From an uncultured delta proteobacterium (GTDB taxonomy: Bacteria; Desulfobacterota; Syntrophia; Syntrophales; Fen-1087), in the NCBI GenBank assembly GCA_963708515.1, contig CAVPSX010000005.1, positions 2,958 through 66,957 of the forward strand: a DNA stretch of 64,000 nt. Direction: 5' to 3'. Positions 4,674-16,235 of this stretch are shown one piece after another. Both the position numbers and the translations under genes were made by a program. Each line of letters begins with the position of its first letter. Position 1 is the stretch's first letter. Under the pieces are notes generated by a model. The model made no database searches. It saw only the letters and a program-made list of their open reading frames with translations, and had not been told where the DNA came from.

Positions 4674-4683
4674 GAGAACGCCG

Positions 4684-5925
4684 TTAATGGTCCTTCCATT
4701 TTTTAATGATGACGCTTGTGTTCACGCCGCCGAAGGCAAAATTCTGGATGGCCGCAATCCCGATCGGATAGTCTCTCACGGCCTGGACATGGCGGATCAT
4801 GGCGCACCGCTCATCCACCTCTTCGAGATTCAGGGTCGGTACGATATAGCCTTCGGCCATGAGATAGGCTGCAATGATGGTTTCAATGGCCCCGCACGAT
4901 CCCATGGTATGCCCCATATAGCTCTTGAGGCCGACAACCGCAGGACGGTTTCCGTAAACGGCATGGATGGCCTGAGCCTCGATGACATCGCCCATCTTGG
5001 TTCCCGTCGCGTGGGCGCTGATGAAATCCACGTCGTCGGCAGGGATCCGGGCATCCTGCAGAGCGAGCCGCATGGTCTCGGCGATGCCGTTGATATTGGG
5101 CAGGATCAGATCTCCTCCGTTGTTGTTGCAGGAAAAGCCGATGACCTCCGCCAGAATGGTCGCGCCGCGTTTTCGGGCCCGTTCGTATTCCTCGAGGAGG
5201 ACCGCACCGGCCCCTTCGCCCACAACGAGACCGTCCCGCTTTTCGTCGAAGGGGCGCGGGGTCAGATGGGGCGTCTCGTTAAAAGCGGTGGAACAGGCGA
5301 GGAGATTGTCGAAGACGGCCACGGTGGTCGTGTCATATTCGTCGGCCCCGCCGCAGATCATGGCATCCTGCATGCCGTATTTGACCATTTCATAGCCGTA
5401 GCCGATGGATTGGCTGCTGGTCGTGCATGCTGTGGAAGAGGAGATGACGCGGCCGGTGATGCCGAACATCTTGGTGATGTTCACGGCGGTGGTGTGGACC
5501 ATGGATTTCAGATAATCCACCGCCCCGATGGATGAAAACCCGTTCCGGGAGCCGCTGAAGAAGGTCTTGTAAATCCCCCGCTGCACCGTGGGGCTCCCGT
5601 GCGTCGAACCGAAGGCGACACCCAGGCGCCCTGAAGTGATAAAGGCCTCATCCAGGCCGGCGGCCTCGAGAACCTCCTTCGCCACCTGACAGGCATAATA
5701 GGCTACCGGTCCCATGGTCTTCCGATGCTGACGCTTGAAATCGTAGGTAATGGGATAATCAACCGTCCCGAAGACTTTGGAGTGAATGTAGCGGGTCAAC
5801 ACATCGTCCTCCTTGAGGACCTTGACCCCGGAGACCCCATGGCTCAAGTTATGGAGGATCTCTTCTCTGGAGCGGCCGATGGGCGTGATGGCCGAACAAG
5901 CAGTAATGACGACTCTTCTTCCCAT
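4684..5925 (-). CDS. Beta-ketoacyl-ACP synthase (KAS I/II-like)
   Basis: 413 aa. The active-site Cys lies in SSSTACTTSS. The two His lie in SAHATGTKMGD and YMGHTMGSCG. The C-terminus is NFAFGGVNTS. Confidence 0.85.
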   Translation of the reverse strand: MGRRVVITACSAITPIGRSREEILHNLSHGVSGVKVLKEDDVLTRYIHSKVFGTVDYPITYDFKRQHRKTMGPVAYYACQVAKEVLEAAGLDEAFITSGRLGVAFGSTHGSPTVQRGIYKTFFSGSRNGFSSIGAVDYLKSMVHTTAVNITKMFGITGRVISSSTACTTSSQSIGYGYEMVKYGMQDAMICGGADEYDTTTVAVFDNLLACSTAFNETPHLTPRPFDEKRDGLVVGEGAGAVLLEEYERARKRGATILAEVIGFSCNNNGGDLILPNINGIAETMRLALQDARIPADDVDFISAHATGTKMGDVIEAQAIHAVYGNRPAVVGLKSYMGHTMGSCGAIETIIAAYLMAEGYIVPTLNLEEVDERCAMIRHVQAVRDYPIGIAAIQNFAFGGVNTSVIIKKWKDH

Positions 5926-5979: not shown

Positions 5980-6240
5980 CTATGCTGTTTGCCTTGCTAT
6001 CGCCAGGGCCTGGATATAATCGATCACATGATTGAGGGTCCGGATGTCCATGGCACGCTTCTTTTCCTCCTGGCTGAGTTCAGAATCGAGAAGGTTTTCG
6101 ATTTCCAGCAGCAATTCGATGGCGTCGATACTGTCAAACTCATGAACTTTCCGGAGATCGTCATCCATCCCGGGATTTTCGATCTCAAACTCCTTCCGGA
6201 AAAACTCAAGGATTCTTGCTTCAATCTCAGCTCGCGTCAT
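5980..6240 (-). CDS. Acyl carrier protein
   Basis: 86 aa from ATG 6240 with AGGAG 8 nt upstream; the longer ORF-track start would overlap the thioesterase gene. The phosphopantetheine attachment motif is HEFDSIDAIELLLEIE. Confidence 0.75.
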   Translation of the reverse strand: MTRAEIEARILEFFRKEFEIENPGMDDDLRKVHEFDSIDAIELLLEIENLLDSELSQEEKKRAMDIRTLNHVIDYIQALAIARQTA

Positions 6241-6268
6241 CTCAGGTCTCCTGTACAAATCATCGTCT

Positions 6269-6748
6269 TCAGACGGGAAATGCCTTCCAAAGCCGGACCG
6301 TCTTGAGATCGACAGCCGTGGGTTTCCCTGACGCATTCAGGGCGCAGTGCTTTGTAAATCCCCTGCAGACGAGAGCTCCTGATTCAGCATGGGTGATTAC
6401 ATAATCGAAGCGGATCTTCACCCGTTCCAGTTCCGCGGGCCGGGTATGGATCCACATAGGATCATCATAATAGAGAGGCTCATAGAATTGAATTCCCAGG
6501 TCGATAATGGGATAGACAAACCCACTCGCCTCTATCTCCTTGTAAGGAAAGGCCGTGTCCCGCATGAGGGAGGCGCGGCCGTATTCAAAATATCGCAGAT
6601 AATTGGCATGATAGACGACGGCCGACCGATCCGTATCGGCATACAGGATCCTGTTTGCACAGCGGTGCCAGCAAAGGCCGTCCTCCATGTCCCGTATGTA
6701 GCGCACGTCGTTTCCCAGGGCTTCCGGTCGGAAAGGTCGCGGCTTCAT
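6269..6748 (-). CDS. Hotdog-fold acyl-CoA/acyl-ACP thioesterase (YbgC/4HBT family)
   Basis: 159 aa with ILYADTDRSAVVYHANYLRYFEYGR, the typical 4HBT catalytic Asp region. It overlaps the upstream ketosynthase gene by 4 nt. Confidence 0.75.
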   Translation of the reverse strand: MKPRPFRPEALGNDVRYIRDMEDGLCWHRCANRILYADTDRSAVVYHANYLRYFEYGRASLMRDTAFPYKEIEASGFVYPIIDLGIQFYEPLYYDDPMWIHTRPAELERVKIRFDYVITHAESGALVCRGFTKHCALNASGKPTAVDLKTVRLWKAFPV

Positions 6749-8013
6749 GCTACCCCCCTGAACAGGATGCAGCAGTTCGTGCCCCCGAATCCGAAGGCGT
6801 TCGCCAGGGTGATTTCATGATGAACCTTCCGGGCCTCATGGGGGACAAAGTCCAGGCCGTCAAATGCCGGGTCGTGAAGGTAGTTGATGGTGGGCAGCAT
6901 GATCCCCCGGCGCATCCCCTCGATGGCCAGGGCATTCTCGATGGCGGCGGCGGCGCCCAGTGTATGGCCGATCTGCGACTTATTCGACGAGATGGGGATA
7001 TGATGCAGCGTCTCGCCGAAGACGGCCCGAAGGCACTCCACTTCCGTCGCGTCTCCCTTGGGTGTTGAGGTGCCGTGGGCGTTGATGTACTGGACATCGC
7101 GGGGAGTCAGTCCCGCATCGTCAATGGTTTCCCGGATGGCCCGGATGATCGTTGCCGGATTGGGCCGGGTGAAATGATGGGCGTCGGAGGTCCAGCCCAC
7201 ACCCATGACCTCCGCCCGTGCCTGAAGGCCGTATCTTGCGATGGCTTCGTCGGCCGCCAGGACAATCACACCGCCTCCCTCGGAAAAGACAAAGCCCCGC
7301 CGATCCCTGCTGAACGGCCGGGAGGCCTGGGCCGGGTCCGAATAGGCCCGGTCGCGCGCGTTAACCTTGATGGTGGCGTTCATGTTTGCAAAACCGTGAA
7401 TAATTTCCGGCATAATGGGCATATCCACGCCTCCCGCCAAGACAAAGTCGCAGTCGCCGTCCCGGATCATCCGGGCGCCGATGCCGACGGCGTGATTTCC
7501 CGAAGCGCAGGCCCCCTGGGGCGAAAAGATGGGGCCGGTAAACCCCATGAGCATCCCCGCCTTGCCTGAGGGCAGGTTGGCGCAGAGATTGGGCAAGAGA
7601 TACGGACTGATCTTCAGGGGCTCCTCGTCGCGCATGTTCCCCGCAGCGGTCCGGAAGGCATCCGTTCCGTTGATGGCGGAACCGATCAGGCAGGCTGTCC
7701 GCGGGCCGGTATCCTGATCCATTTGAAGCCCCGCGTTCTCCAGGGCTTCCTTCACGACGGCCATGGTGAGAATCACGAAAGAGGCGTTCCAGTTGTAAAC
7801 CTCCTTTTCGTTGGAAAAATCGAAGGCCAGGGGATTCCAGTCTGGAATCTCGCCGACGATGTTGCAGAGGGATTCCACATGGCAGCGGGTTACCTTGCGG
7901 AATCCAGCCTCGCCCCGGATGGCCCGCTCCCAGGTTTGGGGAAAGGTTTTCCCCAGCGGCGTCGCCGCGCCGTACCCAATGACAAAAACCTTTCTATTCT
8001 TCGGAGCCTTCAT
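6745..8013 (-). CDS. Beta-ketoacyl synthase (FabF/PKS KS-like)
   Basis: 422 aa. It has Cys in QGACASGNHA, His in NAHGTSTPKGD and His in SQIGHTLGAAA, so the Cys-His-His triad is intact. Confidence 0.85.
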   Translation of the reverse strand: MKAPKNRKVFVIGYGAATPLGKTFPQTWERAIRGEAGFRKVTRCHVESLCNIVGEIPDWNPLAFDFSNEKEVYNWNASFVILTMAVVKEALENAGLQMDQDTGPRTACLIGSAINGTDAFRTAAGNMRDEEPLKISPYLLPNLCANLPSGKAGMLMGFTGPIFSPQGACASGNHAVGIGARMIRDGDCDFVLAGGVDMPIMPEIIHGFANMNATIKVNARDRAYSDPAQASRPFSRDRRGFVFSEGGGVIVLAADEAIARYGLQARAEVMGVGWTSDAHHFTRPNPATIIRAIRETIDDAGLTPRDVQYINAHGTSTPKGDATEVECLRAVFGETLHHIPISSNKSQIGHTLGAAAAIENALAIEGMRRGIMLPTINYLHDPAFDGLDFVPHEARKVHHEITLANAFGFGGTNCCILFRGVA

Positions 8014-8041: not shown

Positions 8042-9292
8042 TCATTCGATCCGGCGCAGCACGATGCAGGCATTGCACCCGCCGAATCCGAAAGCATTTT
8101 TTAAAACAAACTCCTGGGCCTGCGATCTGGCCCCTTCGGCCACGCAATCCAGAACGATATCCGGATCGGGCGTATAATTGATGGTCGGCAGGAGCGTCTC
8201 ATGCATCATGCCCTCCATGGCGAGGATGATCTCGATGGCGCTTGCCGCCCCCATGGCATGACCCAGTTGGGACTTGTTGGCCGACACGGGGGGGATGCAA
8301 CGCCCGAAAACAGCCTCCAGGGCTTCGGCCTCGATCTTGTCTCCGATCCTGGTCGATGTTCCGTGGGCATTGACGGCGTCTATTTCTCGCGGCGTCAGGC
8401 CCGCATGGGCGATGCTCTGCGCCATGCACAGCGTGACGGTTTCCAGGCGCGGTGCGACAAAGTGATGGGCGTCAGAGGTCATGGCCCATCCGGCCATTTC
8501 AAGCCTGGGCGTCAGTCCGTGGACCCTGGCAAAGGCCTTGCTCGCTATGACGACGGCGCCTGCCCCTTCCGATACGACAAATCCCCGTCGGTTTACCGAG
8601 AAAGGGCGGCTTGCCGTCTGCGGCAGTTCCTGCGCCCGCCCGTCCTTAGGGCGGTAGGCGCCGTTCATGGTCGCAAAACCTCCAAGTATGGTTTCCACCA
8701 GGGAGAAATCCACGGCCCCGCAAATGACGACATCGGCCATGCCCAGTTCAATGAACATGGCGCCGACGATCATGGACGTTACCCCGGTGGCGCAGGCCGT
8801 AATGGTGGCGGTAATGGGGCCGGTCGCCCCGGTCATCATGGAGACTTTGCCCCCCACCATGTTGATGCAGGAATTCGGATTGGTGAACGGATGGGGCAGT
8901 TTCCCCTCCGCCACCCAGAGCCGGTCGGCCCGGATGACCGCGTCCTGGCCACCGACGGCTGAACTGAAGGTAATGGCCGTTCTCGGCGCGAGGTCCGGGG
9001 TAATGTCGATCCCGCTTTTATCCAGCGCCCGGTGGACCACCAGCAGGGCATGTTTGAAAATCGGCGACGTCCACAGGGCCATATCACGGGTGGCGAGAAA
9101 GGGATAGGCCCTGGCGTCTATCGGGGGCGTCTCTCCGGCAATCCGTACAGGGAAATGATCCCGCAGGGGGAAGCGGGTCAGGGGACCGATGCCGCTGTCG
9201 CCCCTGACCGCCCGCTTCCATTGTGTTTCCATATCCACACCCAGGGGCGAGACAGCGTCATAGCCCAATATGACCGGTCGTTGTCTGTCCAT
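8042..9292 (-). CDS. Beta-ketoacyl synthase (second of adjacent pair; catalytic Cys retained, so not a CLF)
   Basis: 416 aa with Cys in ATITACATGVTS, then NAHGTSTRIGD and SQLGHAMGAAS. Confidence 0.85.
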   Translation of the reverse strand: MDRQRPVILGYDAVSPLGVDMETQWKRAVRGDSGIGPLTRFPLRDHFPVRIAGETPPIDARAYPFLATRDMALWTSPIFKHALLVVHRALDKSGIDITPDLAPRTAITFSSAVGGQDAVIRADRLWVAEGKLPHPFTNPNSCINMVGGKVSMMTGATGPITATITACATGVTSMIVGAMFIELGMADVVICGAVDFSLVETILGGFATMNGAYRPKDGRAQELPQTASRPFSVNRRGFVVSEGAGAVVIASKAFARVHGLTPRLEMAGWAMTSDAHHFVAPRLETVTLCMAQSIAHAGLTPREIDAVNAHGTSTRIGDKIEAEALEAVFGRCIPPVSANKSQLGHAMGAASAIEIILAMEGMMHETLLPTINYTPDPDIVLDCVAEGARSQAQEFVLKNAFGFGGCNACIVLRRIE

Positions 9293-9297
9293 GAACG

Positions 9298-10299
9298 TTA
9301 CCAGGGGATGAACCGGTAGAGTTTGGCGAACATCTCATAGACCTCGATCCAGTTTTGAAGATCTCTGGCCGAGGCCAGGTGGTCCCTTTTGTTGACCATG
9401 ACCCAGCTCATATGGGCCGCGCCGTCCTTGCAGGTGGAGCAATCCCGCGTGGCGGAGGTGCAGCACCGGTGCCGGGTTTGCAGATCCGAGGCCCACCTGA
9501 CAAAGCGGATGAGCCTTTTGGGTTGCGGATTCCGGTCATCCATCTGCTCCGTTACGGACGGGCACTCGCTCCATCCGAAGGAACGCCCCAGCATCTTCCC
9601 CGTGGTAATGATCTCATGATAGTACTTGCAGGAAATGACCGTCCGGGGATAACGCTCCAGCAGGTCATCCATTTCGGCGCGCACGTCTTTGAGCTTGTCC
9701 TTTGTCCAGAAAAATCCATCGACCTGTTCATCATTCGTCAGGAGCTGGAGATGGACCTTGAGGCCTACATCTTCGATCTTCCTGATGATGCGTTCTGTCC
9801 TTCCCACCTGTTTCGGCGTAATGGTGTAAAGGTAATAGGCGTCTGGGTCTCCCGCATAATTCCGGCTGGAAACGGCAAAGGTGTCTTTTCCCCGGAGCAC
9901 TTTTTCATCTTCTTCGTCGCCCCACAGGGAGATGCCAACCATCATGTCGGGAAAGCGGTCCCGGGGGACCCGTATCTGCCCGTTGGTTGCACAATACGTC
10001 GGCATCGTGCGGTAGAACGCCTCGACACGGTCCAGATAAAGCGTCGGTTCTCCGCCGATAAGGATGGCCAGGTTCACGCCCCTGTCCTTTTCCTTTTGAA
10101 CGAAGGCCTGCCATTTCTCTATATCCGTTTCCTCGGCGGCGGCCTCATGTTCGCCGGAGGAAAAGAAAAAACAGCCCTTGCAACGTAAATTGCAGCGGTT
10201 GGTTATATCATAGATGGAGCTGCGGATATTGAGGGCCGCGATTTTCCGGTAACGCTCATGCCACGCCGCATCCAGTAAGGAACTGACTGTTTTCATCAC
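9298..10299 (-). CDS. Radical SAM protein with C-terminal Cys-rich (SPASM/twitch-like) region
   Basis: It has IYDITNRCNLRCKGCFFF (CX3CX2C) and a C-terminal RCCTSATRDCSTCKD. It is a paralogue of the next gene. Confidence 0.8.
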   Translation of the reverse strand: MMKTVSSLLDAAWHERYRKIAALNIRSSIYDITNRCNLRCKGCFFFSSGEHEAAAEETDIEKWQAFVQKEKDRGVNLAILIGGEPTLYLDRVEAFYRTMPTYCATNGQIRVPRDRFPDMMVGISLWGDEEDEKVLRGKDTFAVSSRNYAGDPDAYYLYTITPKQVGRTERIIRKIEDVGLKVHLQLLTNDEQVDGFFWTKDKLKDVRAEMDDLLERYPRTVISCKYYHEIITTGKMLGRSFGWSECPSVTEQMDDRNPQPKRLIRFVRWASDLQTRHRCCTSATRDCSTCKDGAAHMSWVMVNKRDHLASARDLQNWIEVYEMFAKLYRFIPW

Positions 10300-10368
10300 G
10301 CTTCTCTCTTTTCAATAAAACAGGCTCACTGCCGCAAAGACATCGAAAACCGATCTTCCCGTACCTTT

Positions 10369-11475
10369 TCAGGAGGATAGCCGGGGAGGGCTTACCAACT
10401 TGCGGCAGAGATTGTCACTTTTATTGTACCCTTTGACCCAGACAGTCAGATACGTATCAACATAGTCGAGCCATGATCGGAACGTGTCGGGATCCGTCGC
10501 ATGGCGATGGAGCCGGGCCGTCACGACAGCGCTTCCCGAGGCGTAATGGCGACAATCGTCACAATCCGTATCCGGGACGCAGCAGGCCGCTTCCCTATCC
10601 CAGGAGAGATCGGCCCGGTACTGCCGGAAAGACCGTCCAAGGCCGATATCCTCGGAGCGGTTCATACGGGGATAGGTGCAGCCATAGAGGGCATGGAGCC
10701 CCTGCCGATGGGTGTGGGCCACCGCGCTGTAGTGAGAAAAAATGACGTTCCCGGGATAACGCGCCATCAGGTCCATCATGACCTGGCGGGTCCGGTCCAG
10801 GGACGCCTCATCATGCCGGAGGGGGCCGGCATAACCCAGGGGCGCTGAAAACACGTTGAAGGTGATCCTCCCGTCGTCGCGAACGATGGATTCCACAACC
10901 CCATCCGCTTCGTCGAGATTGTCGCGGGTGAACGTATAAACGAAGACCGCCCGGGGATCAGCGTGGTAATTGCCGATCTGTTTGAGAAGCAGATTTTTTG
11001 CCTTTCTTATCCGCAGACTGGTTTCATCGTTCCCCCAGACGGAAATATGAATCTGATAACCGACAGATTCGGGTATGCGCTTCAAACCGTTCGTGGCGAT
11101 ACACCCTAAGGGTATTTCGCCATAGCAGACTTTCAGGATGTCCGGAACCAGAGACGGCTCGGCGCCGGCCAGCACCGCATAGGTGATGCCCCGTTTTCTC
11201 TCCTCATGCATGAGCCTTTGCCACGCCCCGGGGTCGTCGTTTTCCGGGGCAAACTGCTTGTGCCCCTCATAATAATAACAGCCGTCGCAGCGGATGTTGC
11301 AGCGGGTCGTCATATCGTATGTCGATTCCCGGAGAAAGAAAAACTTCCGCACCTTCTCCCAGCGCTCGCGCACCGCCGGGTCGGCCAATAGCTCGGAGAA
11401 TTTCCATTTTTTCTTTATGTTATCTTCTCGGGATAACGATAATGCGTTGGTATGATCCATGGAGCGCTCAATCAT
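10369..11475 (-). CDS. Radical SAM protein with C-terminal Cys-rich region (paralogue of 9298-10299)
   Basis: It has TYDMTTRCNIRCDGCYYY and a C-terminal ACCVPDTDCDDCRHY. Conserved blocks shared with the neighbour include GxEPxL, ATNG and ISxWG. Confidence 0.8.
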   Translation of the reverse strand: MIERSMDHTNALSLSREDNIKKKWKFSELLADPAVRERWEKVRKFFFLRESTYDMTTRCNIRCDGCYYYEGHKQFAPENDDPGAWQRLMHEERKRGITYAVLAGAEPSLVPDILKVCYGEIPLGCIATNGLKRIPESVGYQIHISVWGNDETSLRIRKAKNLLLKQIGNYHADPRAVFVYTFTRDNLDEADGVVESIVRDDGRITFNVFSAPLGYAGPLRHDEASLDRTRQVMMDLMARYPGNVIFSHYSAVAHTHRQGLHALYGCTYPRMNRSEDIGLGRSFRQYRADLSWDREAACCVPDTDCDDCRHYASGSAVVTARLHRHATDPDTFRSWLDYVDTYLTVWVKGYNKSDNLCRKLVSPPRLSS

Positions 11476-11484
11476 TCGGTCATT

Positions 11485-12168
11485 TCAGACCTGGGCCAGT
11501 TTCATCCGGATATAGTCGGCAATCTTGCGAATACTGCCGAGTTTTGGATAATCGTCTTCATCGATGGTGATGCCATATTCATCCTGCAGAACGAGAACCA
11601 CCGTCGCCAGATCCATGCTGTCAACGCCTAACTCATCGACCAGATCAAGATCGGGATTGAACGTCTCCTTCGTAATCTCCTCGAGCTTCAGCTCGAAGAT
11701 GATGATTTCGGTAATGCGAAGGAGCAGGGCTTCTTGATCAATGTTTTCCATACGTTCATCATTCTCCTTGCCTGTGAAATAAGTCTTCAGTTCCATTACG
11801 CCGGTGCATACCGTATGTCCTTTTACGGAAACCTCGAACCGATAGTCATGGCCATGATCAGCGATGGCGGAAGACACGGATATGCTTAACGTCTCACCCG
11901 GCCTGACGGGTCTTCTGAAACGAACCTTACGGATCCCTTTTATTGCAATCCGTCCGCCTTTTTCGGAGCCCTGTCGCCTGAAGGCTTCGGCCACCATGGA
12001 CAATATGGCAATACCCGGAAGGATCGGTTCCCCTGGAAAGTGGCCGGAGAACCACAACGAGGCGACATCCATGCGCGCCTCCGCCAAGGGGACAGGCTTA
12101 AACCTGTCCCCTGTTCCCGAAGACGCTCCCGGATAGGACAGGATATGCCATGGTTCCTGCATTGTCAC
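11485..12168 (-). CDS. FabZ/FabA-like hotdog dehydratase fused to an acyl carrier protein domain
   Basis: The N-terminal part has FSGHFPGEPILPGIAILSMVAEAF, a FabZ HFPxxPxxPG motif. The C-terminal part has DELGVDSMDLATVVLVLQDEYGI, an ACP Ser motif. Confidence 0.75.
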   Translation of the reverse strand: MTMQEPWHILSYPGASSGTGDRFKPVPLAEARMDVASLWFSGHFPGEPILPGIAILSMVAEAFRRQGSEKGGRIAIKGIRKVRFRRPVRPGETLSISVSSAIADHGHDYRFEVSVKGHTVCTGVMELKTYFTGKENDERMENIDQEALLLRITEIIIFELKLEEITKETFNPDLDLVDELGVDSMDLATVVLVLQDEYGITIDEDDYPKLGSIRKIADYIRMKLAQV

Positions 12169-12290
12169 CGCAGCTCATTTTTCGACTATTTTACGACTTC
12201 GCAACATTTGCCCATGACGAAATTTGCTTACCTATCATTTATCAAACCGCAGATCAACATTTTTTATGTACAGGCAAGTATTCATTATCC

Positions 12291-13112
12291 TTAGCAATCA
12301 ATGGAAACCCGGGTCATAATGGGTTTCCCGATGAGTTCGGCCAGGGGTCTGACCTGCAACCCTTTATGTTTCAGACCGGAAAGGATGTTGTCGACTTCGT
12401 GCAGCCAGCGGTCGGCATCTGTATCCGGCCGCGGCCGGACATCATGCAGAAGAATAATATCATCGGGTCTCACCTTCTTCAGGATCTTTCCTGCCAACCC
12501 ATGGATACGTCTATTGCCGAAATCATTGGCCCGGCATGAAAATGTCAGGCAGAAAAGCCCTTTAACTTTCAACATATCCGCCAGTTTCGGGCTGGTAATC
12601 CCCACGGGAGGACGAAAAGCGACGGGTGATATGCCAAAGCGATGCAATACGGCTTGTGTGGCGTCGATCTCCCGGGCCAGCGTTTGAGAGGGGCGAAGCA
12701 TCAGAAAGGGATCATGTCGGTAAGAATGATTTCCGATATCATGGCCCTGTGCGAGAATCTCCCCAATGAGGTCTCCATTTTTTTCAGCGTTGACGCCGGT
12801 GACAAAAAAAGCCGCCTGCACGGCATGCCGCTTCAACAAATGAAGCAGCGGACCGGTTGTAACCGGGTCCGGACCGTCATCGAAGGTGACGGCGACCGCC
12901 GGCCCGCCCGCATTTCCCCGGCTGACGATGGGGAGAAAGAAACCCCAGCGGGGAAAGAATGGCGCTGCCAGGCAAAGGAACAGAAAAACGGAAAACGGCG
13001 CCGCTGCCCATTCGATTTTAACGAAAGCCATGATCGGGGCGAGCATAAAGGCGGCCAGGCCGGTGATCATGGCCGGGGAAGCACGTCCTGTATCAGCGCC
13101 ATGACGGTTCAT
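12291..13112 (-). CDS. Polysaccharide deacetylase (NodB homology domain) with N-terminal TM segments
   Basis: It has VAVTFDDGPDP and IGNHSYRHDP NodB motifs. The preferred start is ATG 13112, which overlaps the stop of the upstream gene (ATGA). The ORF-track start is 13130. Confidence 0.75.
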   Translation of the reverse strand: MNRHGADTGRASPAMITGLAAFMLAPIMAFVKIEWAAAPFSVFLFLCLAAPFFPRWGFFLPIVSRGNAGGPAVAVTFDDGPDPVTTGPLLHLLKRHAVQAAFFVTGVNAEKNGDLIGEILAQGHDIGNHSYRHDPFLMLRPSQTLAREIDATQAVLHRFGISPVAFRPPVGITSPKLADMLKVKGLFCLTFSCRANDFGNRRIHGLAGKILKKVRPDDIILLHDVRPRPDTDADRWLHEVDNILSGLKHKGLQVRPLAELIGKPIMTRVSIDC

Positions 13113-14458
13113 CGGATCAGAAGCTCCCACAGGGGCCCGGTATGTCCCCGGGCATAGAGCCTGGACATCATCCGGTACATCCGGGGCGGGCCGGAACCAA
13201 CCACCCAGTTTTCGCGATCTGCGGCGTGGTCTTTTATGCGTTTCAGGACGGTCTCGCGATGGAGGGCCACAGACCAGTAAAATGTCGGTTCCATGAGATC
13301 GTTCCCGTCTTTGATCTGCCTTTCCTGCAAGGCCAGAATATAGAGAGGCGTGTGGGGATAAATCCTTATCCCGGCAAAAACGAAAAAAACCGTTTTGTCC
13401 AATCTCTCGGTCCGAAACAGGGTCTCCTCCAGTGTTTCCTGGTTTTCACCCGGACCGCCGATCATGAGATAATGGGCGACATGAAGGCCGGCGTCACCGG
13501 CCAGCCGGTGTGATGTAAAGACATCTTCTGCAAGGAACGGTTTGCCATAAGCCCTGAGCGTGGGGTCGGCAAGGGATTCCGTGCCGAACTCCACATGCGT
13601 CAACCCGGCGTCGGCGAGGATGCGATAGTAGTCCGGCGGTGGGGCCGTGGGTGTAAAAAAGCCGCCCCAGGGGATGGAAAGCCCCGCTTTCTTGAAAGCC
13701 AGAGCTACGTCCAGGCTATGTTCATAATGGCTGTTGAACGTTGAGTCGGTGATGTACAGATACTTTGCGCCGGCCTCCTGAAGCATTCTGGCCGTCCGCC
13801 CCACTTCCGCCGGTTCGGCAAAACGCAGGCGCCTCCCCTCAATATGGGGGTAGGTGCAGTAAATGCAATGGAAGGGGCATCCCCTTTTCGTTTGCAGGTT
13901 GAGCATGCCGCCCCTCTTCAGATAATAAGACCGGTAGGAATGATCGGGAATGCCGCCGCGCCCGAAGGATGCAGGCAGAGGCTCCGGGTAGACAGCCGGA
14001 CCTTTCCGGGCGATAACGCCGGGGAGTTCCGAAACGGATTCCTGCCGTTCCAGGGCCTGAAGAAGCAGGGGGAGCCTTTCCCCCTCGCCGATAATGCCGA
14101 AATCGGCCTCCAGCCTGGCCATGAACTCTCCGGGCAGGATCGTGAAGCCGCTTCCTCCCAACACGATCACGCCCTGTGAGTGCCGGCGGATAGTATCGAT
14201 CAAGGCGCTGATTTCACCGATAAAGGATTCCGTGCGGGTATCGTCGGTATTGTCGATGTTCCGGATGGAGATGCCGATCACATCGGGGCGCAAATCGGCA
14301 AGAACGGCAGCGATGCCCGCGCTTTCTTTCATCTCGTTCATATCGATGCAGCTCACCTGATGGGGCGGTGAGATGGCGTTCACGACATAATCCAGACCGA
14401 GAGGGTAGGTCGGATAGGGCTGCTGCACGGTATTGGTGGAGACGAGAAGGATCTTCAT
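13109..14458 (-). CDS. B12-binding-domain radical SAM protein (class B type)
   Basis: 449 aa. The N-terminal MKILLVSTNT...YPLGLDYV matches a cobalamin-binding Rossmann-like region. The radical-SAM cluster motif is TKRGCPFHCIYCTYP. Confidence 0.8.
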   Translation of the reverse strand: MKILLVSTNTVQQPYPTYPLGLDYVVNAISPPHQVSCIDMNEMKESAGIAAVLADLRPDVIGISIRNIDNTDDTRTESFIGEISALIDTIRRHSQGVIVLGGSGFTILPGEFMARLEADFGIIGEGERLPLLLQALERQESVSELPGVIARKGPAVYPEPLPASFGRGGIPDHSYRSYYLKRGGMLNLQTKRGCPFHCIYCTYPHIEGRRLRFAEPAEVGRTARMLQEAGAKYLYITDSTFNSHYEHSLDVALAFKKAGLSIPWGGFFTPTAPPPDYYRILADAGLTHVEFGTESLADPTLRAYGKPFLAEDVFTSHRLAGDAGLHVAHYLMIGGPGENQETLEETLFRTERLDKTVFFVFAGIRIYPHTPLYILALQERQIKDGNDLMEPTFYWSVALHRETVLKRIKDHAADRENWVVGSGPPRMYRMMSRLYARGHTGPLWELLIR

Positions 14459-15936
14459 TGGAATTCCCCGGCAACGTCACGGGCAAATTGCTCGTGACCG
14501 ATGATCTGCATGACCGCCTGAAACGATCCCAGGACCGTCCCCATGATGCCGGGGCACAGCCTGTTCTGTCCTGCCAGGTACAGACCGTTGATGGATGTCC
14601 GATTCAAAGACGCCGCCTTCATCAGTTGTCCTGCTGAGCGAAGAATGCCGTAAGGAGACCCGTCGGGGCTCGCCACCCAATCCCGGATCGTCAGGGGTGT
14701 AAAGCTGTCCAGTATCTTCCCGTCCGTAAGCGGACCGAAGATCTTGGATGCCTCAGAGATGAAATGACGGGCCTTTTTCTCCTTTTTCGCTCCATAGTCG
14801 CTGCCGCGCCGTCCGGAGCGCGTACCGGACCATGGCCGCCACCCTTCAACGCTGCTCGTGGTGATAATGGACAGGAGGTTGACCCCCGCCTGCCCGCTGG
14901 GTCGCAATTGATGAAAAACCCCCCGGGTCAGGGAGCCATCTGCTTCCGGATAGAGACGATAGATATTATAGGGCAAGGCAGTGTGCATATCGGCGTTCAC
15001 GGCCAGATGGATGCCGAAAAGACCTTTGGTGTCGATGAGCTGTGCAACCCGCTGAACGTAGGATGGCCGAAGCGCCCCGGCCGGCACCAAGGCGGCCGCG
15101 ACCCTGGGATGGATGGCCGCGATGATGGTCCACGCCTCCAGAATGCGGCCGGACTTCAACACAACGCCCTGCACCTGTCCGGATTCCACCCGGATACTCT
15201 CCACGCCGTCTCCCGCGATGACATCGCCTTCCAGGGATTTGAAGCTCGCTAAAAAGGCGTCCGCCATCCGGGTGCTGCTGCAGGCCAGTCGCCAGGATGA
15301 CATCAGGTAAGAGGCCAGGGTCATGTAATAATAAATGGCGGGGCATTCCTGGAGGGGCACCCCGATCAAAGTTGCCGGGACAGCCAGGACATTGCGGAGT
15401 CTTTGGGAACAACCGAATCGCAGGAGGCGCTGCCCCATGGACTCGAAGTTTAAGTAAGACAAGGCCGCCGTCGTCGGAGACAGGACCATGTCCAAGGAGG
15501 ACAGCGTTCGGGATATCTCCCGGAGATCGGCCATGATCCCCTTGATTTGGACTTGTTCTTCAGGAAAGGCTTGATGGAGGCTTATCTCAAAGGCATCCAT
15601 GCCGGACGGAAGATCGAAGACAAAGTCGTCGTATACATAGCGATCGATAATGCCTTCCATTCCCATGCGCTCAAGGGGGATCAGCGGGGTGACGCCAAGG
15701 TAATCCCATAAACGGCGCAGGGGCTGACCCTCATCGAGGGCTCCCATATAATGGACGCCGGTGGGACATTCGATGCCGGACCGCGCATAGCTGCGCATCA
15801 ACCCTCCGGGCAGGGGGTTTTTTTCCACCACCGTGACCCGGCAATGAAGTTTTGACAGAATAATGCCGGCGGCGAGACCTCCGATGCCGGAACCGATGAT
15901 CAGGACACGTCCGGGGGCGAGGTTTTGTTTCGTCAT
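14455..15936 (-). CDS. FAD-dependent oxidoreductase, phytoene desaturase (CrtI)-like
   Basis: 493 aa. The N-terminal dinucleotide fold is RVLIIGSGIGGLAAGIILSKLHCRVTVVEKNPLPGG. The C-terminal part has NGLYLAGQ. Confidence 0.75.
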   Translation of the reverse strand: MTKQNLAPGRVLIIGSGIGGLAAGIILSKLHCRVTVVEKNPLPGGLMRSYARSGIECPTGVHYMGALDEGQPLRRLWDYLGVTPLIPLERMGMEGIIDRYVYDDFVFDLPSGMDAFEISLHQAFPEEQVQIKGIMADLREISRTLSSLDMVLSPTTAALSYLNFESMGQRLLRFGCSQRLRNVLAVPATLIGVPLQECPAIYYYMTLASYLMSSWRLACSSTRMADAFLASFKSLEGDVIAGDGVESIRVESGQVQGVVLKSGRILEAWTIIAAIHPRVAAALVPAGALRPSYVQRVAQLIDTKGLFGIHLAVNADMHTALPYNIYRLYPEADGSLTRGVFHQLRPSGQAGVNLLSIITTSSVEGWRPWSGTRSGRRGSDYGAKKEKKARHFISEASKIFGPLTDGKILDSFTPLTIRDWVASPDGSPYGILRSAGQLMKAASLNRTSINGLYLAGQNRLCPGIMGTVLGSFQAVMQIIGHEQFARDVAGEFQ

Positions 15937-15959
15937 GGTATGGGGGCGCTGATTATCGC

Positions 15960-16235
15960 TCAGGCGGCTTTGTTCGTTGACTTGTGGTCATAGACATACG
16001 CCGCCAGGGCGCAGACGGAGGCAAAGACTTTGACGCCCAGTTCCTTGCTGTCAATCTCGACACCGTAATCTTTTTCGAGCATCATGACCAGCTCCAGGAC
16101 ATCAATGGAATCCAGCCCCAGATCGCCTCCGATAAGCTGTGCTTCGGCATCGATATCATCTGGCGCCACGTCAATGAGGTTTAAGGTTTCGATAATTTTC
16201 TTTTTCAGTTCAAATATGAGTGAATCCATGCCCAT
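15960..16235 (-). CDS. Acyl carrier protein (first gene of the operon)
   Basis: 91 aa with GDLGLDSIDVLELVMMLEKDYG. Confidence 0.8.
   Translation of the reverse strand: MGMDSLIFELKKKIIETLNLIDVAPDDIDAEAQLIGGDLGLDSIDVLELVMMLEKDYGVEIDSKELGVKVFASVCALAAYVYDHKSTNKAA

What the first reader, a model, noticed from the sequence alone, without database searches (positions are those of the whole stretch)
9298..15936. Two tandem paralogous radical-SAM genes, a B12-type radical-SAM gene and a CrtI-like oxidoreductase embedded between KS and ACP genes
The two paralogues share several blocks:
- IYDITNRCNLRCKGCFFF versus TYDMTTRCNIRCDGCYYY
- GGEPTL versus GAEPSL
- CATNGQIRVP versus IATNGLKRIP
- ISLWGDEEDE versus ISVWGNDETS
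- a C-terminal CC-x5-C-x2-C patch, which suggests an auxiliary Fe-S cluster

I do not recognise them as any named radical-SAM subfamily. Class B (cobalamin) radical-SAM enzymes normally methylate or rearrange unactivated carbons. A CrtI-type flavoprotein would introduce or isomerise double bonds. This combination in a fatty-acyl context is the chemically unusual core of the operon.
Basis: partly seen in the sequence, partly recalled or inferred. Interest (0 to 1): 0.7.

Follow-up and report, generated by a model that had tools for sequence, protein, structure and literature searches.

The report
Radical-SAM pair in anaerobe lipid operon
The window holds a real 15-gene fatty-acid-like operon from an uncultured Syntrophales bacterium; it belongs to the already noticed but still uncharacterised "ladderane-like" lipid clusters of anaerobes, and its most conserved core is an unnamed pair of radical-SAM enzymes next to two ketosynthases.

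Summary
Positions 9298-15936 (minus strand) encode two tandem paralogous radical-SAM (rSAM) proteins (27% identity, E 2e-35), a B12-type rSAM protein and a CrtI-superfamily flavoprotein. All sit in one 15-gene operon (1790-16235).

- **Cluster kind:** known but unsolved. It resembles the extended FASII clusters of Kuenenia/Desulfotalea (Rattray 2009).
- **B12 enzyme:** passes the curated family TIGR04072. It matches Kuste3342 (34%, E 6.5e-85), not the anammox-specific Kuste3608.
- **rSAM pair:** belongs to no curated family and is not Kuste3343-type.
- **Cys tail:** conserved in 57 of 62 diverse relatives. This suggests one auxiliary Fe-S cluster on a reduced SPASM/twitch-like domain.
- **Synteny (41 full-flank loci):** rSAM_A-rSAM_B 41/41, KS-KS-thioesterase 39-40/41, B12 27/41, CrtI-like 12/41.
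- **Distant relatives:** often sit beside carrier proteins or PKS modules; one is fused to a thioesterase.

Most likely the pair performs O2-independent C-H chemistry on an ACP-bound acyl chain destined for glycerolipids. The exact reaction is unknown. It is neither a peptide maturase nor a ladderane pathway.

The parts
15960..16235 (-). ACP1, stand-alone acyl carrier protein and first gene of the operon
   Evidence: PF00550 39.5 bits; NF006617 75.8 bits, above its cut-off of 70. DSI phosphopantetheine motif at residue 42. Found in 25 of 41 full loci.
14455..15936 (-). CrtI-superfamily FAD oxidoreductase (accessory)
   Evidence: PF01593 and PF13450. crtI_fam scores only 64.5 bits against a cut-off of 238. 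Identity is 27% to Kuste3336, 21% to Kuste3607 and 23% to Pantoea CrtI. Present in only 12 of 41 loci.
13109..14458 (-). B12-binding radical-SAM protein, TIGR04072 family (Kuste3342 type)
   Evidence: TIGR04072 scores 381.8 bits, above the cut-off of 360, over the full length. Has PF02310 plus PF04055 and CPFHCIYC at residue 194. 34% identical to Kuste3342 over 405 aa, E 6.5e-85, against 24-25% to Kuste2803/3608. Orthologue present in 27 of 41 loci.
12291..13130 (-). Membrane-anchored NodB/polysaccharide-deacetylase-like protein
   Evidence: PF01522 87.7 bits. N-terminal hydrophobic stretch, TFDDGP and NHSYRH motifs. Weak match to the Kuste3351 N-terminus (28%). Present in 32 of 41 loci.
11485..12168 (-). 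FabZ/FabA-like hot-dog dehydratase fused to an ACP domain
   Evidence: PF07977 plus PF00550. FabZ models score 45-49 bits, below their cut-offs. DSM motif at residue 183. Present in 25 of 41 loci.
10369..11475 (-). rSAM_A, radical-SAM paralogue A
   Evidence: CxxxCxxC and GAEPSL motifs, CC-x5-C-x2-C tail. Directly upstream of rSAM_B in 41 of 41 loci; median identity 70%.
9298..10299 (-). rSAM_B, radical-SAM paralogue B and the most conserved protein of the operon
   Evidence: CxxxCxxC and GGEPTL motifs, CC-x6-C-x2-C tail. 76-95% identical across Syntrophales, Desulfobulbales, Desulfobacterales and Spirochaetota MAGs. AF2 model has pTM 0.80 with an rSAM barrel. Best PDB fold matches are anSMEcpe, TigE, SuiB and AbmM.
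8042..9292 (-). KS1, FabF-like ketosynthase with intact Cys-His-His
   Evidence: PF00109/PF02801. fabF model scores 316.9 bits, below the cut-off of 493. Triad conserved. Present in 40 of 41 loci.
6745..8013 (-). KS2, FabF-like ketosynthase, 42% identical to KS1, intact triad
   Evidence: Present in 39 of 41 loci.
6269..6748 (-). YbgC/4HBT hot-dog thioesterase
   Evidence: TIGR00051 scores 83.1 bits, above the cut-off of 68.7. Present in 39 of 41 loci.
5980..6336 (-). ACP3 (the ORF as listed overlaps the thioesterase; the true start is probably internal)
   Evidence: PF00550. DSI motif at residue 68.
4684..5925 (-). KS3, PRK09116-type ketosynthase with intact triad
   Evidence: NF006587 scores 410 bits, below the cut-off of 470. 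Triad conserved. The ACP3-KS3-PlsC block moves as a unit and is present in 18 of 41 loci.
3909..4673 (-). PlsC/LPLAT-type acyltransferase
   Evidence: AGP_acyltrn domain 71.7 bits. HX4D motif at residue 90.
2356..3912 (-). PKS-type dehydratase (PS-DH) fused to an Sfp-type phosphopantetheinyl transferase
   Evidence: PF14765 plus PF01648. Present in 36 of 41 loci.
1790..2359 (-). Divergent PlsY-family acyltransferase, last gene of the operon
   Evidence: TIGR00023 scores 88.9 bits, below the cut-off of 137. Present in 24 of 41 loci.

Best explanation
Positions 1790-16235 (minus strand) form one tightly packed 15-gene operon of an uncultured Syntrophales bacterium.

**What it encodes**
- A self-contained type II FAS/PKS-like machine: three carrier domains, three catalytically intact ketosynthases, two dehydratase domains, a hot-dog thioesterase and its own PPTase.
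- Tailoring enzymes: the rSAM_A/rSAM_B pair, a TIGR04072 B12-radical-SAM protein, a membrane NodB-type deacetylase and an accessory CrtI-like flavoprotein.
- PlsC- and PlsY-like acyltransferases.

It is a member of the uncharacterised 'extended FASII / ladderane-like' clusters of anaerobic bacteria.

**Proposed mechanism**
- rSAM_A and rSAM_B belong to an unnamed radical-SAM family related to SPASM/twitch enzymes. Each appears to carry the SAM cluster plus one Cys-ligated auxiliary Fe-S cluster.
- I infer that the pair works together, or one after the other, on an acyl chain held on one of the operon's ACPs.
- The 5'-deoxyadenosyl radical abstracts a hydrogen from an unactivated carbon, and the auxiliary cluster takes up the electron. 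The net result is an O2-independent two-electron oxidation: a desaturation or an intramolecular C-C bond.
- The adjacent KS1/KS2 pair elongates the modified chain.
- The B12 enzyme most plausibly adds a methyl group.
- The thioesterase or the PlsY/PlsC-like enzymes deliver the product to membrane glycerolipids.

**Shown here**
- gene content and domain identities
- paralogy of the two rSAM proteins
- conservation of the Cys motifs
- family membership of the B12 enzyme
- synteny across 41 loci
- association of distant relatives with carrier proteins and PKS modules

**Inferred**
- number and role of the auxiliary clusters
- ACP-bound substrate
- type of reaction
- methylation by the B12 enzyme
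- lipid destination
For: **Operon structure and domains**
- Searches give the genes and domains. The genes overlap or lie 4-122 nt apart.

**Paralogy and conserved motifs**
- One search shows the paralogy.
- CxxxCxxC plus C279/C287/C290 are invariant in 47 A and B sequences. They stay invariant or nearly so down to 23% identity.
- 57 of 62 diverse members keep C-x(2-9)-C-x2-C, and 56 of those have a further upstream Cys.

**Relation to SPASM/twitch enzymes**
- hhalign aligns the tail onto the SPASM Cys region of Kuste3343, probability 97%.
- The best PDB sequence match is the twitch enzyme SkfB, 67 bits.
- The best fold matches are anSMEcpe, TigE, SuiB and AbmM.

**Synteny in 41 full-flank loci**
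- A-B 41/41; KS1 40/41; KS2 39/41; TE 39/41; PS-DH/PPTase 36/41; B12 27/41; CrtI 12/41.
- rSAM_B is the most conserved of the genes found in all loci, with median identity 78%.

**Deep conservation of the unit**
- L084 holds KS-KS-A type (47%)-B type (38%)-ACP-KS.

**Carrier or PKS context of distant relatives**
- L086: TubC_N-thioesterase-rSAM fusion after a PKS module.
- L087: beside FAAL-ACP-KS and a Pfa-like PKS.
- L081: beside AMP-binding and SnoaL-PP-binding genes.
- L083 and L090: followed by an ACP.

**B12 enzyme**
- TIGR04072 above its cut-off; 34% identity to Kuste3342, E 6.5e-85.
- The nearest characterised relatives by score are the methyltransferases BzaD (143 bits) and TsrM (108 bits; PDB 6wte at E 3.6e-27).
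Against: - No product, substrate or activity is known for any member of the rSAM_A/B family or of TIGR04072.
- The AF2 model is unreliable exactly where the Cys tail lies (residues 246-285, pLDDT below 50). The auxiliary cluster and its ligation are therefore inferred from sequence only.
- The operon has no ketoreductase or enoyl reductase, so the chain chemistry cannot be reconstructed.
- Four of the eleven distant relatives examined have no carrier protein or KS nearby (L088, L089, L091, L092).
- TIGR04072 also resembles non-methylating class B enzymes: HpnJ 60.6 bits and AprD4 56.4 bits.
- Heterologous expression of the related Kuenenia genes in E. coli gave no new lipid (PMC4790861).
Confidence: 0.55

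Rival explanations
1. The operon is a dissociated, O2-independent route to polyunsaturated or polyene acyl chains (Rattray's 'novel anaerobic PUFA pathway'). Double bonds would come from the FabA/PS-DH-type dehydratases and the CrtI-like enzyme. The radical-SAM proteins would act as anaerobic desaturases or isomerases.
For: - Parts that also occur in Pfa PUFA synthases: a KS pair, two dehydratase types including PS-DH, several ACPs and an Sfp-type PPTase, plus a 4HBT thioesterase.
- One distant family member sits beside a Pfa-like PKS with a PfaD-like reductase (L087).
- D. psychrophila, which has a related cluster, makes C31:8 and C31:9 hydrocarbons (PMC2649909).
Against: - The CrtI-like gene is absent from 29 of 41 loci.
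- Known PUFA synthases need no radical-SAM enzyme.
- In Shewanella-type bacteria such hydrocarbons come from Pfa plus Ole enzymes (PMC6463001).
- No PUFA was seen on expressing the Kuenenia genes (PMC4790861).
- No PUFA or polyene is reported, to my knowledge, from Syntrophus or Smithella.
Confidence: 0.15
2. The radical-SAM enzymes build branched or membrane-spanning lipids. The B12 enzyme would methylate mid-chain carbons. The A/B pair would join two alkyl chains tail to tail, as Tes/GDGT-MAS or the bacterial Mss do.
For: - The nearest characterised relatives of the B12 enzyme are C-methyltransferases.
- Tes is among the top NCBIfam hits of rSAM_B.
- A distant family branch occurs in Blastocatellia/Pyrinomonadaceae MAGs. 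That group makes iso-diabolic acid, and no Mss homologue was found in it (PMC13159169).
- PlsY/PlsC genes point to membrane lipids.
Against: - The Tes model scores only 29.4 bits against a cut-off of 450, and GDGT-MAS only 23.6 bits. Both matches are limited to the generic N-terminal core.
- The acidobacterial relative sits in a PaaA-like/adenylase/carrier context, not with lipid genes.
- Tail-to-tail coupling acts on finished lipids and does not explain the obligate link to a KS pair, ACPs and a thioesterase.
Confidence: 0.1
3. The operon makes a specialised, non-membrane polyketide-like product, for example an aryl-polyene-like pigment or a lipid-anchored metabolite. The acyltransferases would only attach it to an anchor.
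For: - The architecture recalls type II aryl-polyene systems: several KS, two ACPs, two DH, a thioesterase and an LPLAT.
- There is a weak ApeI-like hit for the DH-ACP, 20.6 bits.
- KS3 is of the PRK09116 type.
- Distant family members sit in PKS assembly lines.
Against: - There is no adenylating starter enzyme, ketoreductase, glycosyltransferase or export genes in the operon.
- The ApeI hit is below the Pfam cut-off of 28.5.
- The very high conservation (rSAM_B 76-95%) across orders fits a housekeeping-like membrane function better than a variable secondary metabolite.
Confidence: 0.12
4. The operon makes ladderane lipids, as in anammox bacteria.
For: It has the same kinds of parts as anammox Cluster I: ACP, FabZ-like DH, two FabF-like KS, a PDH-like flavoprotein and a B12 radical-SAM enzyme (bioRxiv 10.64898/2026.05.19.726425).
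Against: - The host is a Syntrophales bacterium.
- The B12 enzyme is Kuste3342 type, only 24% identical to Kuste3608.
- Both KS keep the catalytic triad, whereas Cluster I needs a dead FabFmut partner (preprint above).
- No ladderanes were found in D. psychrophila (PMC2649909).
- The four radical-SAM proteins of the Kuenenia clusters include no A/B-type member.
Confidence: 0.02
5. The two paralogues are RiPP (peptide) maturases that happen to lie in a lipid operon.
For: - The best PDB sequence hit is the sactisynthase SkfB.
- Many top NCBIfam hits are peptide maturases.
- One distant relative lies near a PqqD-like gene and another radical-SAM gene (L089).
Against: - All such hits are at most 31.5 bits against cut-offs of 300-720 and cover only the N-terminal core.
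- There is no RRE/PqqD domain.
- The intergenic gaps are 5-122 nt, leaving no room for a precursor ORF.
- Synteny with KS-KS-TE is invariant.
Confidence: 0.01

Closest known systems
Extended FASII cluster kuste3335-3352 of Kuenenia stuttgartiensis and its syntenic loci in Desulfotalea psychrophila, Geobacter and Pelobacter (Rattray et al. 2009, PMC2649909)
   Same: - A type II FAS-like operon with extra ACPs and FabF paralogues.
- A Kuste3342-type B12 radical-SAM enzyme: 34% identity, E 6.5e-85, TIGR04072.
- A polysaccharide-deacetylase-like gene (Kuste3351-like).
- A phytoene-dehydrogenase-like flavoprotein, 27% identical to Kuste3336.
- Function unknown in every case.
   Different: - The window has the rSAM_A/B pair, which is none of the four Kuenenia radical-SAM proteins. 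Kuste3343 is a classical SPASM enzyme scoring 29 bits against the A/B profile, where A and B score above 410.
- The window lacks a Kuste3343-type gene, which occurs only in Desulfobulbales loci L057, L070, L074 and L076.
- It also lacks the CoA-ligase, MMPL-like, glycosyltransferase and SAM-methylase genes of that cluster.
Anammox 'Cluster I' (kuste3603-3608: amxACP, amxFabZ, amxFabF2/amxFabFmut, PDH, B12 radical-SAM enzyme)
   Same: The same list of part types lies in one operon: ACP, hot-dog dehydratase, two adjacent FabF-like KS, a PDH-like flavoprotein and a class B radical-SAM enzyme.
   Different: - None of the parts is a close orthologue. The B12 enzyme is 24% identical to Kuste3608.
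- Both KS are catalytically intact rather than forming a KS/CLF-like pair (bioRxiv 10.64898/2026.05.19.726425).
- The dehydratase is fused to an ACP.
- The host is not an anammox bacterium.
SPASM/twitch radical-SAM enzymes (anSME, SuiB, SkfB, BtrN, PqqE)
   Same: - A partial TIM-barrel core with CxxxCxxC and a GGE motif, followed by a C-terminal Cys-rich extension.
- Best sequence match is SkfB. Best fold matches are anSMEcpe, SuiB and AbmM.
- hhalign places the A/B tail on the SPASM Cys region.
   Different: - Only 4-5 conserved Cys rather than the 7-8 of SPASM.
- Pfam SPASM is not hit.
- No RRE domain and no peptide or sugar substrate context.
- Always found as a paralogue pair beside ketosynthases.
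Lipid-modifying radical-SAM enzymes (Tes/GDGT-MAS, Mss, GrsA/GrsB, Jaw5)
   Same: Radical-SAM chemistry on unreactive alkyl chains. The GrsA/GrsB precedent, from my own knowledge, is of two paralogues acting at two positions. Jaw5 acts during iterative chain growth (PMC13459092).
   Different: - Those enzymes act mostly on isoprenoid lipids, or are HemN-like (Jaw5).
- Sequence similarity to Tes is confined to the generic core: 29 bits against a cut-off of 450.
- The 2026 review lists only ladderanes and Jaw5 as proposed radical-SAM-modified fatty-acyl lipids (PMC13459092).

Membership tests
TIGR04072 lipid biosynthesis B12-binding/radical SAM protein (for 13109-14458) | Whole-protein HMM score at or above the curated cut-off, aligned end to end | tested here: met
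   381.8 bits against a cut-off of 360; residues 2-449 align to model positions 1-443.
TIGR04072 lipid biosynthesis B12-binding/radical SAM protein (for 13109-14458) | N-terminal B12-binding domain plus a radical-SAM domain with CxxxCxxC | tested here: met
   PF02310 44.8 bits and PF04055 81.3 bits. CPFHCIYC at residue 194.
TIGR04072 lipid biosynthesis B12-binding/radical SAM protein (for 13109-14458) | Located in a fatty-acid/lipid biosynthesis gene neighbourhood; homologous to the Kuenenia cluster member | tested here: met
   Lies in the operon with ACPs and KS genes. 34% identical over 405 aa to Kuste3342, E 6.5e-85.
SPASM-domain radical-SAM enzymes (for rSAM_A/B) | Seven-Cys motif CX9-15GX4C ... 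CX2CX5CX3C ... C binding two auxiliary clusters; Pfam SPASM hit | tested here: not met
   Only C-x(~30-40)-C(C)-x5-6-C-x2-C is conserved. Pfam reports no SPASM domain. Kuste3343, by contrast, has CKTCEYNKECYGC.
Twitch-type radical-SAM enzymes (for rSAM_A/B) | Truncated SPASM fold (beta-hairpin then helix) holding one auxiliary Fe-S cluster | tested here: inconclusive
   - Four conserved Cys.
- A hairpin-like pair of strands at 235-241 and a helix at 293-302 in the AF2 model, but residues 246-285 have pLDDT below 50.
- hhalign aligns the tail to a SPASM region.
- SkfB is the best PDB hit, but only over the core.
Twitch-type radical-SAM enzymes (for rSAM_A/B) | Auxiliary Fe-S cluster actually bound | not testable with these tools
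   Needs iron/sulfide analysis and EPR or Mossbauer spectroscopy of the reconstituted protein.
RiPP maturases / sactisynthases (for rSAM_A/B) | Family HMM above cut-off, an RRE/PqqD-like recognition domain, and an adjacent precursor peptide gene | tested here: not met
   Best maturase models score at most 31.5 bits against cut-offs of 300-720. No RRE or PqqD hit. No room for a precursor ORF in the operon.
Tetraether/membrane-spanning lipid synthases (Tes, GDGT-MAS) | NF045702 score at or above 450, or full-length homology to GDGT-MAS | tested here: not met
   29.4 bits (rSAM_B) and 16.5 bits (rSAM_A), N-terminal region only. PDB 7tol scores 23.6 bits against the family profile.
Bacterial Mss (Sahonero-Canavesi 2022) | E at most 1e-50 and at least 30% identity to T. 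maritima or T. ethanolicus Mss | not tested
The criterion is taken from PMC13159169.
Anammox ladderane Cluster I | KS/CLF-like heterodimer with one catalytically dead FabF (amxFabFmut) | tested here: not met
   KS1, KS2 and KS3 all keep the Cys, His, His columns.
Anammox ladderane Cluster I | Kuste3608/2803-type B12 radical-SAM enzyme | tested here: not met
   24-25% identity, E about 1e-9 to 1e-10, compared with 34% and E 6.5e-85 to Kuste3342.
Kuste3335-3352 / D. psychrophila-type extended FASII cluster | Kuste3342-type B12 radical-SAM enzyme, deacetylase-like gene, PDH-like gene and extra FabF/ACP genes in one locus | tested here: met
Kuste3335-3352 / D. psychrophila-type extended FASII cluster | Kuste3343-type SPASM radical-SAM enzyme, acyl-CoA-ligase-like gene, MMPL-like membrane protein, glycosyltransferase | tested here: not met
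   - tblastn with Kuste3343 finds nothing in the window and hits only loci L057, L070, L074 and L076.
- No such domains in the operon genes.
- A GT25-like gene lies outside the operon on the other strand.
CrtI phytoene desaturase family (TIGR02734) (for 14455-15936) | Family HMM score at or above 238 | tested here: not met
   64.5 bits. Only superfamily-level PF01593 and PF13450 hits. 23% identity to Pantoea CrtI.

The most novel reading that the evidence does not exclude
The rSAM_A/B pair is the catalytic heart of a widespread, oxygen-independent way of functionalising growing fatty-acyl-ACP chains, by desaturation or ring/C-C bond formation. On this reading the 'ladderane-like' clusters of Syntrophales, Desulfobulbales, Desulfobacterales and some Spirochaetota make a class of modified membrane lipids not yet detected. 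The same enzyme family would have been recruited into PKS assembly lines, as in the thioesterase-rSAM fusion in L086. Its acidobacterial branch might relate to the still-missing iso-diabolic-acid pathway.
Probability: 0.15. Interest if true: 0.85.

Novelty: new member of a known kind. Interest (0 to 1): 0.5.

Why it matters
Clusters annotated as 'ladderane' are regularly reported from anoxic metagenomes in phyla that make no ladderanes, and nobody knows what they produce (PMC9902471). The anammox genes themselves have resisted expression (PMC4790861, PMC10139942).

This analysis separates three things that are usually lumped together:
- the anammox-specific Cluster I
- the Kuste3342-type B12 enzyme (TIGR04072), which is shared with Deltaproteobacteria
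- a radical-SAM pair that is not one of the four Kuenenia radical-SAM proteins, yet is the most conserved element of the non-anammox clusters

The operon also occurs in cultured strains: Desulfogranum japonicum DSM 18378, Desulfopila sp. IMCC35006 and Hydrosulfovibrio ferrireducens CB1MN. The question 'what lipid does it make?' is therefore directly testable. If the pair acts on acyl-ACP, it would be a rare case of radical-SAM modification of fatty-acyl rather than isoprenoid lipids (PMC13459092).

Tried and rejected
1. **Assumed orthology to Kuste3342/3343.** I first assumed the tandem pair equalled Kuste3342/Kuste3343 (= DP1853/DP1855) from Rattray 2009. The sequences in the supplement of PMC4790861 show otherwise. 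Kuste3342 is the B12 enzyme and Kuste3343 is a classical SPASM enzyme, so I dropped this idea.
2. **Homologue search with the Kuste3343 N-terminus.** My last homologue search used the 128-aa N-terminus of Kuste3343. It returned only four partial proteins and no organism context, so it was of little use.
3. **Genome scan.** The scan with A1 returned only the 80 closest loci, at 76-95% identity. Kuenenia, Desulfotalea, Geobacter and other distant carriers could therefore not be inspected.
4. **Taxon names for representatives.** Two cluster look-ups gave few names: Bacteroidales, Desulfobacterales, Blastocatellia, Pyrinomonadaceae and Deltaproteobacteria in the first, and none in the second.
5. 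**Regulatory elements.** Rfam found no riboswitch or other RNA in the window. Promoter and terminator scans were at chance level, so the operon boundaries rest on gene spacing and synteny only.
6. **Structure of the Cys tail.** The AF2 model could not resolve it. Fold search gave only generic radical-SAM and TIM-barrel matches, TM 0.37-0.48.
7. **Literature.** A search for a link between 10-methyl-branched fatty acids and B12 radical-SAM enzymes found nothing.
8. **Paralogue in the acidobacterial locus.** The 375-aa gene upstream of the acidobacterial relative is not an A-type paralogue.

Full report
**1. What is in the sequence**

The region named in the finding lies inside one long minus-strand gene array. 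In the direction of transcription the genes are:

| Gene | Coordinates | Identity |
|---|---|---|
| ACP1 | 15960-16235 | acyl carrier protein |
| CrtI-like | 14455-15936 | flavoprotein |
| B12-rSAM | 13109-14458 | B12-binding radical-SAM protein |
| PDAc | 12291-13130 | NodB/polysaccharide-deacetylase-like protein with N-terminal membrane helices |
| DH-ACP | 11485-12168 | FabZ-like dehydratase fused to an ACP |
| rSAM_A | 10369-11475 | radical-SAM paralogue A |
| rSAM_B | 9298-10299 | radical-SAM paralogue B |
| KS1 | 8042-9292 | FabF-like ketosynthase |
| KS2 | 6745-8013 | FabF-like ketosynthase |
| TE | 6269-6748 | YbgC-type thioesterase |
| ACP3 | 5980-6336 | acyl carrier protein |
| KS3 | 4684-5925 | third ketosynthase |
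| PlsC-like | 3909-4673 | acyltransferase |
| PS-DH/PPTase | 2356-3912 | PKS-type dehydratase fused to an Sfp-type PPTase |
| PlsY-like | 1790-2359 | acyltransferase |

Neighbouring genes overlap by a few bases or are 5-122 nt apart. All three carrier domains have the DS(I/M) serine motif, and the PlsC-like protein has HX4D.

**2. The two paralogues**

rSAM_A and rSAM_B share 27% identity over 326 residues, E 2e-35. Both keep CxxxCxxC and the GGE-type SAM motif.

I aligned 23 rSAM_B-type and 24 rSAM_A-type sequences. The three N-terminal Cys and C279, C287 and C290 (rSAM_B numbering) are invariant. The same positions remain invariant or nearly so in 23 representatives as distant as 23% identity.

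I also examined 62 sequences: 60 full-length representatives from a library clustered at 50% identity, plus the two window proteins.
- 57 have C-x(2-9)-C-x2-C in the C-terminal part.
- 56 of those have another Cys 5-60 residues upstream.
- The CC doublet is present in 39.

One detail differs from the finding: rSAM_B has CC-x6-C-x2-C, not x5.

**3. What family are they?**

No curated model claims them.
- Pfam sees only the first 70 positions of PF04055.
- NCBIfam hits (ScmE, TrsS, Tes, viperin, MoaA, NirJ, PqqE, peptide maturases) are all at most 31.5 bits against cut-offs of 180-720, and cover only the N-terminal core.
- A profile of the family scores 67 bits against the twitch enzyme SkfB and 20-32 bits against other solved radical-SAM enzymes.
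- The AF2 model (pTM 0.80) shows the radical-SAM barrel. It is unreliable at the two cluster-binding segments, residues 35-54 and 246-285.
- Its best PDB matches are anSMEcpe, TigE, SuiB and AbmM, with TM only 0.37-0.48.
- hhalign against the SPASM enzyme Kuste3343 gives 97% probability at 17% identity. It lays the A/B Cys tail on the SPASM Cys region.

My reading is that this is a separate family derived from SPASM/twitch enzymes. It keeps four to five Cys, enough for one auxiliary cluster. The cluster itself is inferred, not shown.

**4. Size and spread of the family**

An exhaustive search of 1.84 billion representatives found 585 clusters at E no greater than 1e-3 and 210 at E no greater than 1e-10. 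Apart from fragments, all rSAM_B orthologues collapse into a single 50% cluster.

In GTDB species genomes, 569 matching stretches encode a relative. The A and B genes of one locus may both be counted in that number.

The 80 best loci are 76-95% identical to rSAM_B. They come from:
- Syntrophales, Smithella and Syntrophus
- Desulfobulbales, including Desulfogranum japonicum DSM 18378, Desulfopila sp. IMCC35006 and Electrothrix
- Desulfobacterales
- Hydrosulfovibrio ferrireducens
- several Spirochaetota/Leptospirales MAGs

The window is 90.7% identical at the DNA level over 9.7 kb to a Syntrophales MAG (L001).

**5. Co-occurrence**

I used the 41 loci that have at least 8 kb upstream and 9 kb downstream of rSAM_B. 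In all 41, rSAM_A directly precedes rSAM_B.

| Gene | Loci with an orthologue (of 41) |
|---|---|
| rSAM_A | 41 |
| KS1 | 40 |
| KS2 | 39 |
| Thioesterase | 39 |
| PS-DH/PPTase | 36 |
| Deacetylase | 32 |
| TIGR04072-type B12 enzyme | 27 |
| ACP1 | 25 |
| PlsY-like | 24 |
| ACP3-KS3-PlsC block | 18 |
| CrtI-like | 12 |

Median identity to the window protein is 78% for rSAM_B, 73% for KS2, 71% for TE, 70% for rSAM_A, 69% for KS1, 53% for the B12 enzyme and 39% for the PPTase fusion.

The conserved core is therefore rSAM_A-rSAM_B-KS-KS-TE. The B12 enzyme is a frequent companion and the CrtI-like gene an occasional one.

**6. Distant relatives**

A metagenomic locus (L084) keeps the whole unit at much lower identity: KS-KS-A type (47%)-B type (38%)-ACP-KS. 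The duplication is therefore old and the pair is kept together.

Other branches of the family sit in these contexts:
- fused to a TubC_N docking domain and a thioesterase, directly after a type I PKS module (L086)
- beside a FAAL-ACP-KS gene and a Pfa-like PKS (L087)
- beside an adenylating enzyme and a SnoaL-carrier protein (L081, a cluster whose named members are Blastocatellia/Pyrinomonadaceae)
- directly upstream of a stand-alone carrier protein (L083 and L090)
- a few kilobases from PKS genes (L085)

Four relatives have no such neighbours (L088, L089, L091, L092). The recurring partner is a phosphopantetheinyl carrier. This is the main basis for proposing an ACP-bound substrate.

**7. Relation to the anammox literature**

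Rattray et al. (PMC2649909) described FASII clusters with radical-SAM and phytoene-dehydrogenase-like genes in Kuenenia stuttgartiensis. They found striking synteny in Desulfotalea psychrophila, Geobacter and Pelobacter. They detected no ladderanes in D. psychrophila and proposed an anaerobic PUFA route.

Javidpour et al. (PMC4790861) expressed 34 Kuenenia genes in E. coli without obtaining any new lipid. They also showed that Kuste3336 and Kuste3607 cannot replace CrtI.

Their supplementary tables give usable protein sequences. Comparison with the window shows:
- The window's B12 enzyme matches Kuste3342: 34% over 405 aa, E 6.5e-85.
- It matches the Cluster I enzymes Kuste3608 and Kuste2803 only weakly: 24-25%, E about 1e-9.
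- Kuste3343 is a classical SPASM enzyme (CKTCEYNKECYGC). It scores 29 bits on the A/B profile, where A and B score above 410.
- The CrtI-like protein is 27%, 21% and 23% identical to Kuste3336, Kuste3607 and Pantoea CrtI respectively.

Hence none of the four radical-SAM proteins of the Kuenenia clusters is of the A/B type.

A Kuste3343-like gene (42-46% identity) does occur about 3 kb upstream of the A/B pair in four Desulfobulbales loci, including D. japonicum. The clusters are thus mosaics drawn from one pool of parts.

All three window ketosynthases keep Cys-His-His. This differs from the KS/CLF-like amxFabF2/amxFabFmut pair of Cluster I (bioRxiv 10.64898/2026.05.19.726425).

Recent reviews still list the ladderane enzymes as unknown. 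They name ladderanes and Jaw5 as the only fatty-acyl lipids proposed to be modified by radical-SAM enzymes (PMC13459092). Metagenomic surveys report 'ladderane' BGCs of unknown function in Desulfobacterota and other phyla (PMC9902471).

**8. How it most likely works**

*Shown:* the operon can prime its own carriers (PPTase), condense (three intact KS), dehydrate (two DH types), release (TE) and acylate glycerol phosphate-type acceptors (PlsY- and PlsC-like proteins).

*Inferred:*
- The rSAM pair acts on a chain held by one of these carriers.
- A conserved four-Cys site suggests a fully ligated auxiliary cluster. In anSME- and BtrN-type enzymes such a cluster accepts the electron from the substrate radical (established knowledge for those families).
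- That points to an O2-independent two-electron oxidation of an unactivated carbon: desaturation or C-C bond formation.
- The strict pairing suggests a heterodimer or two successive positions.
- The dedicated KS pair next door would accept the altered chain.
- By score, the nearest characterised relatives of the B12 enzyme are the methyltransferases BzaD and TsrM, so methyl transfer is the first guess. However, HpnJ- and AprD4-like non-methylating chemistry is not excluded.
- The B12 enzyme usually travels with the NodB-type deacetylase. This recalls the HpnK/HpnJ pair of hopanoid head-group chemistry (my own knowledge, untested here).

I put about 0.75 on the general picture: a lipid or polyketide-like operon whose rSAM pair acts on a carrier-bound acyl chain. 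I put about 0.2 on any particular reaction.

**9. Rivals**

- **Anaerobic PUFA or polyene route.** It has some architectural support, but radical-SAM enzymes are not needed for it and the CrtI-like gene is mostly absent.
- **Methyl-branch or membrane-spanning lipid synthesis.** This is suggested by the B12 enzyme and by the acidobacterial branch. However, Tes-like similarity is only generic (29 bits against a cut-off of 450), and the KS/ACP linkage is left unexplained.
- **Lipid-anchored secondary metabolite.** It cannot be excluded.
- **Ladderane synthesis and peptide maturation.** Both are effectively excluded by host, family tests and context.

**10. Verdict**

The feature is real, well conserved and functionally unsolved, but it is one more member of a cluster type known since 2009.

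The useful new points are these:
- The tandem rSAM pair is a family of its own, distinct from all four Kuenenia radical-SAM proteins.
- Together with KS-KS-TE, it is the invariant and most conserved core of the non-anammox clusters.
- Relatives of the pair are embedded in PKS systems.
- Cultured carriers exist for direct testing.

Noticed in passing
window 3908-3916 (PlsC / PS-DH-PPTase junction), compared with L002:16689-18239: A close relative, L002 (85-91% nucleotide identity), carries an extra 516-aa B12-binding radical-SAM gene between the PlsC-like and PS-DH/PPTase genes. It is BchE/HpnR-like, with a best score of 143.8 bits that is below cut-off. L004, L010 and L012 appear to have it too. 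The window lacks it cleanly; its two genes overlap by 4 nt.
   Followed up: partly
L038, L040, L044, L049, L065, L066 (genome scan): MAGs labelled Spirochaetota or Leptospirales carry the complete operon, with rSAM_B about 78% identical to the Syntrophales copy. A cluster member is also named from a Bacteroidales MAG. This is either horizontal transfer between phyla or binning error.
   Followed up: no
L086:9001-11175: A 724-aa protein fuses a TubC_N docking domain, a thioesterase and an rSAM_B-like domain (32% identity). It lies directly after a 1754-aa PKS module, so the family has been built into an assembly line.
   Followed up: partly
L081:5060-9423 and L082: The branch whose named members are Blastocatellia/Pyrinomonadaceae (38% identical to rSAM_B) sits between a PaaA/PaaC-like di-iron protein and an adenylating enzyme plus SnoaL-carrier protein, with a FabH-like gene nearby. 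Acidobacteria make iso-diabolic acid by an unknown route (PMC13159169), but no link was tested.
   Followed up: no
L057:2792-5478 (Desulfogranum japonicum), also L070, L074, L076: Desulfobulbales versions of the cluster hold four radical-SAM genes: a 495-aa B12-like one, a Kuste3343-like SPASM one (42-46% identity), and the A/B pair. They lack the TIGR04072 orthologue. These are probably the DP1853/DP1855-type genes of Rattray 2009.
   Followed up: partly
window 16453-16803 (-): A 116-aa ORF upstream of ACP1 encodes a small hydrophobic protein with no family hit. Weak homologues (29-41% identity) lie at the same end of the operon in 13 of 41 loci, and on the other strand in some Desulfobulbales loci.
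   Followed up: partly
window 16993-17853 (+): A gene with a weak glycosyltransferase family 25 hit (33 bits) is transcribed divergently from the operon. It may be relevant to the deacetylase/B12 pair if these act on a sugar head group.
   Followed up: no
window 5980-6336 and 10296-10299: There are likely start-codon issues in the mechanical ORF list. ACP3 as listed overlaps the thioesterase by 68 nt and has a 30-residue N-terminal extension outside the carrier domain. rSAM_B probably starts at the ATG one codon after the listed GTG.
   Followed up: partly
window 455-1258 (-), 18608-20281 (+), 23897-25975 (-): The flanking genes are unrelated to the operon as far as seen: a MetA-pathway/outer-membrane-channel-like protein just downstream of PlsY, formate-tetrahydrofolate ligase (777.9 bits), and a DUF255 thioredoxin-domain protein.
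   Followed up: no
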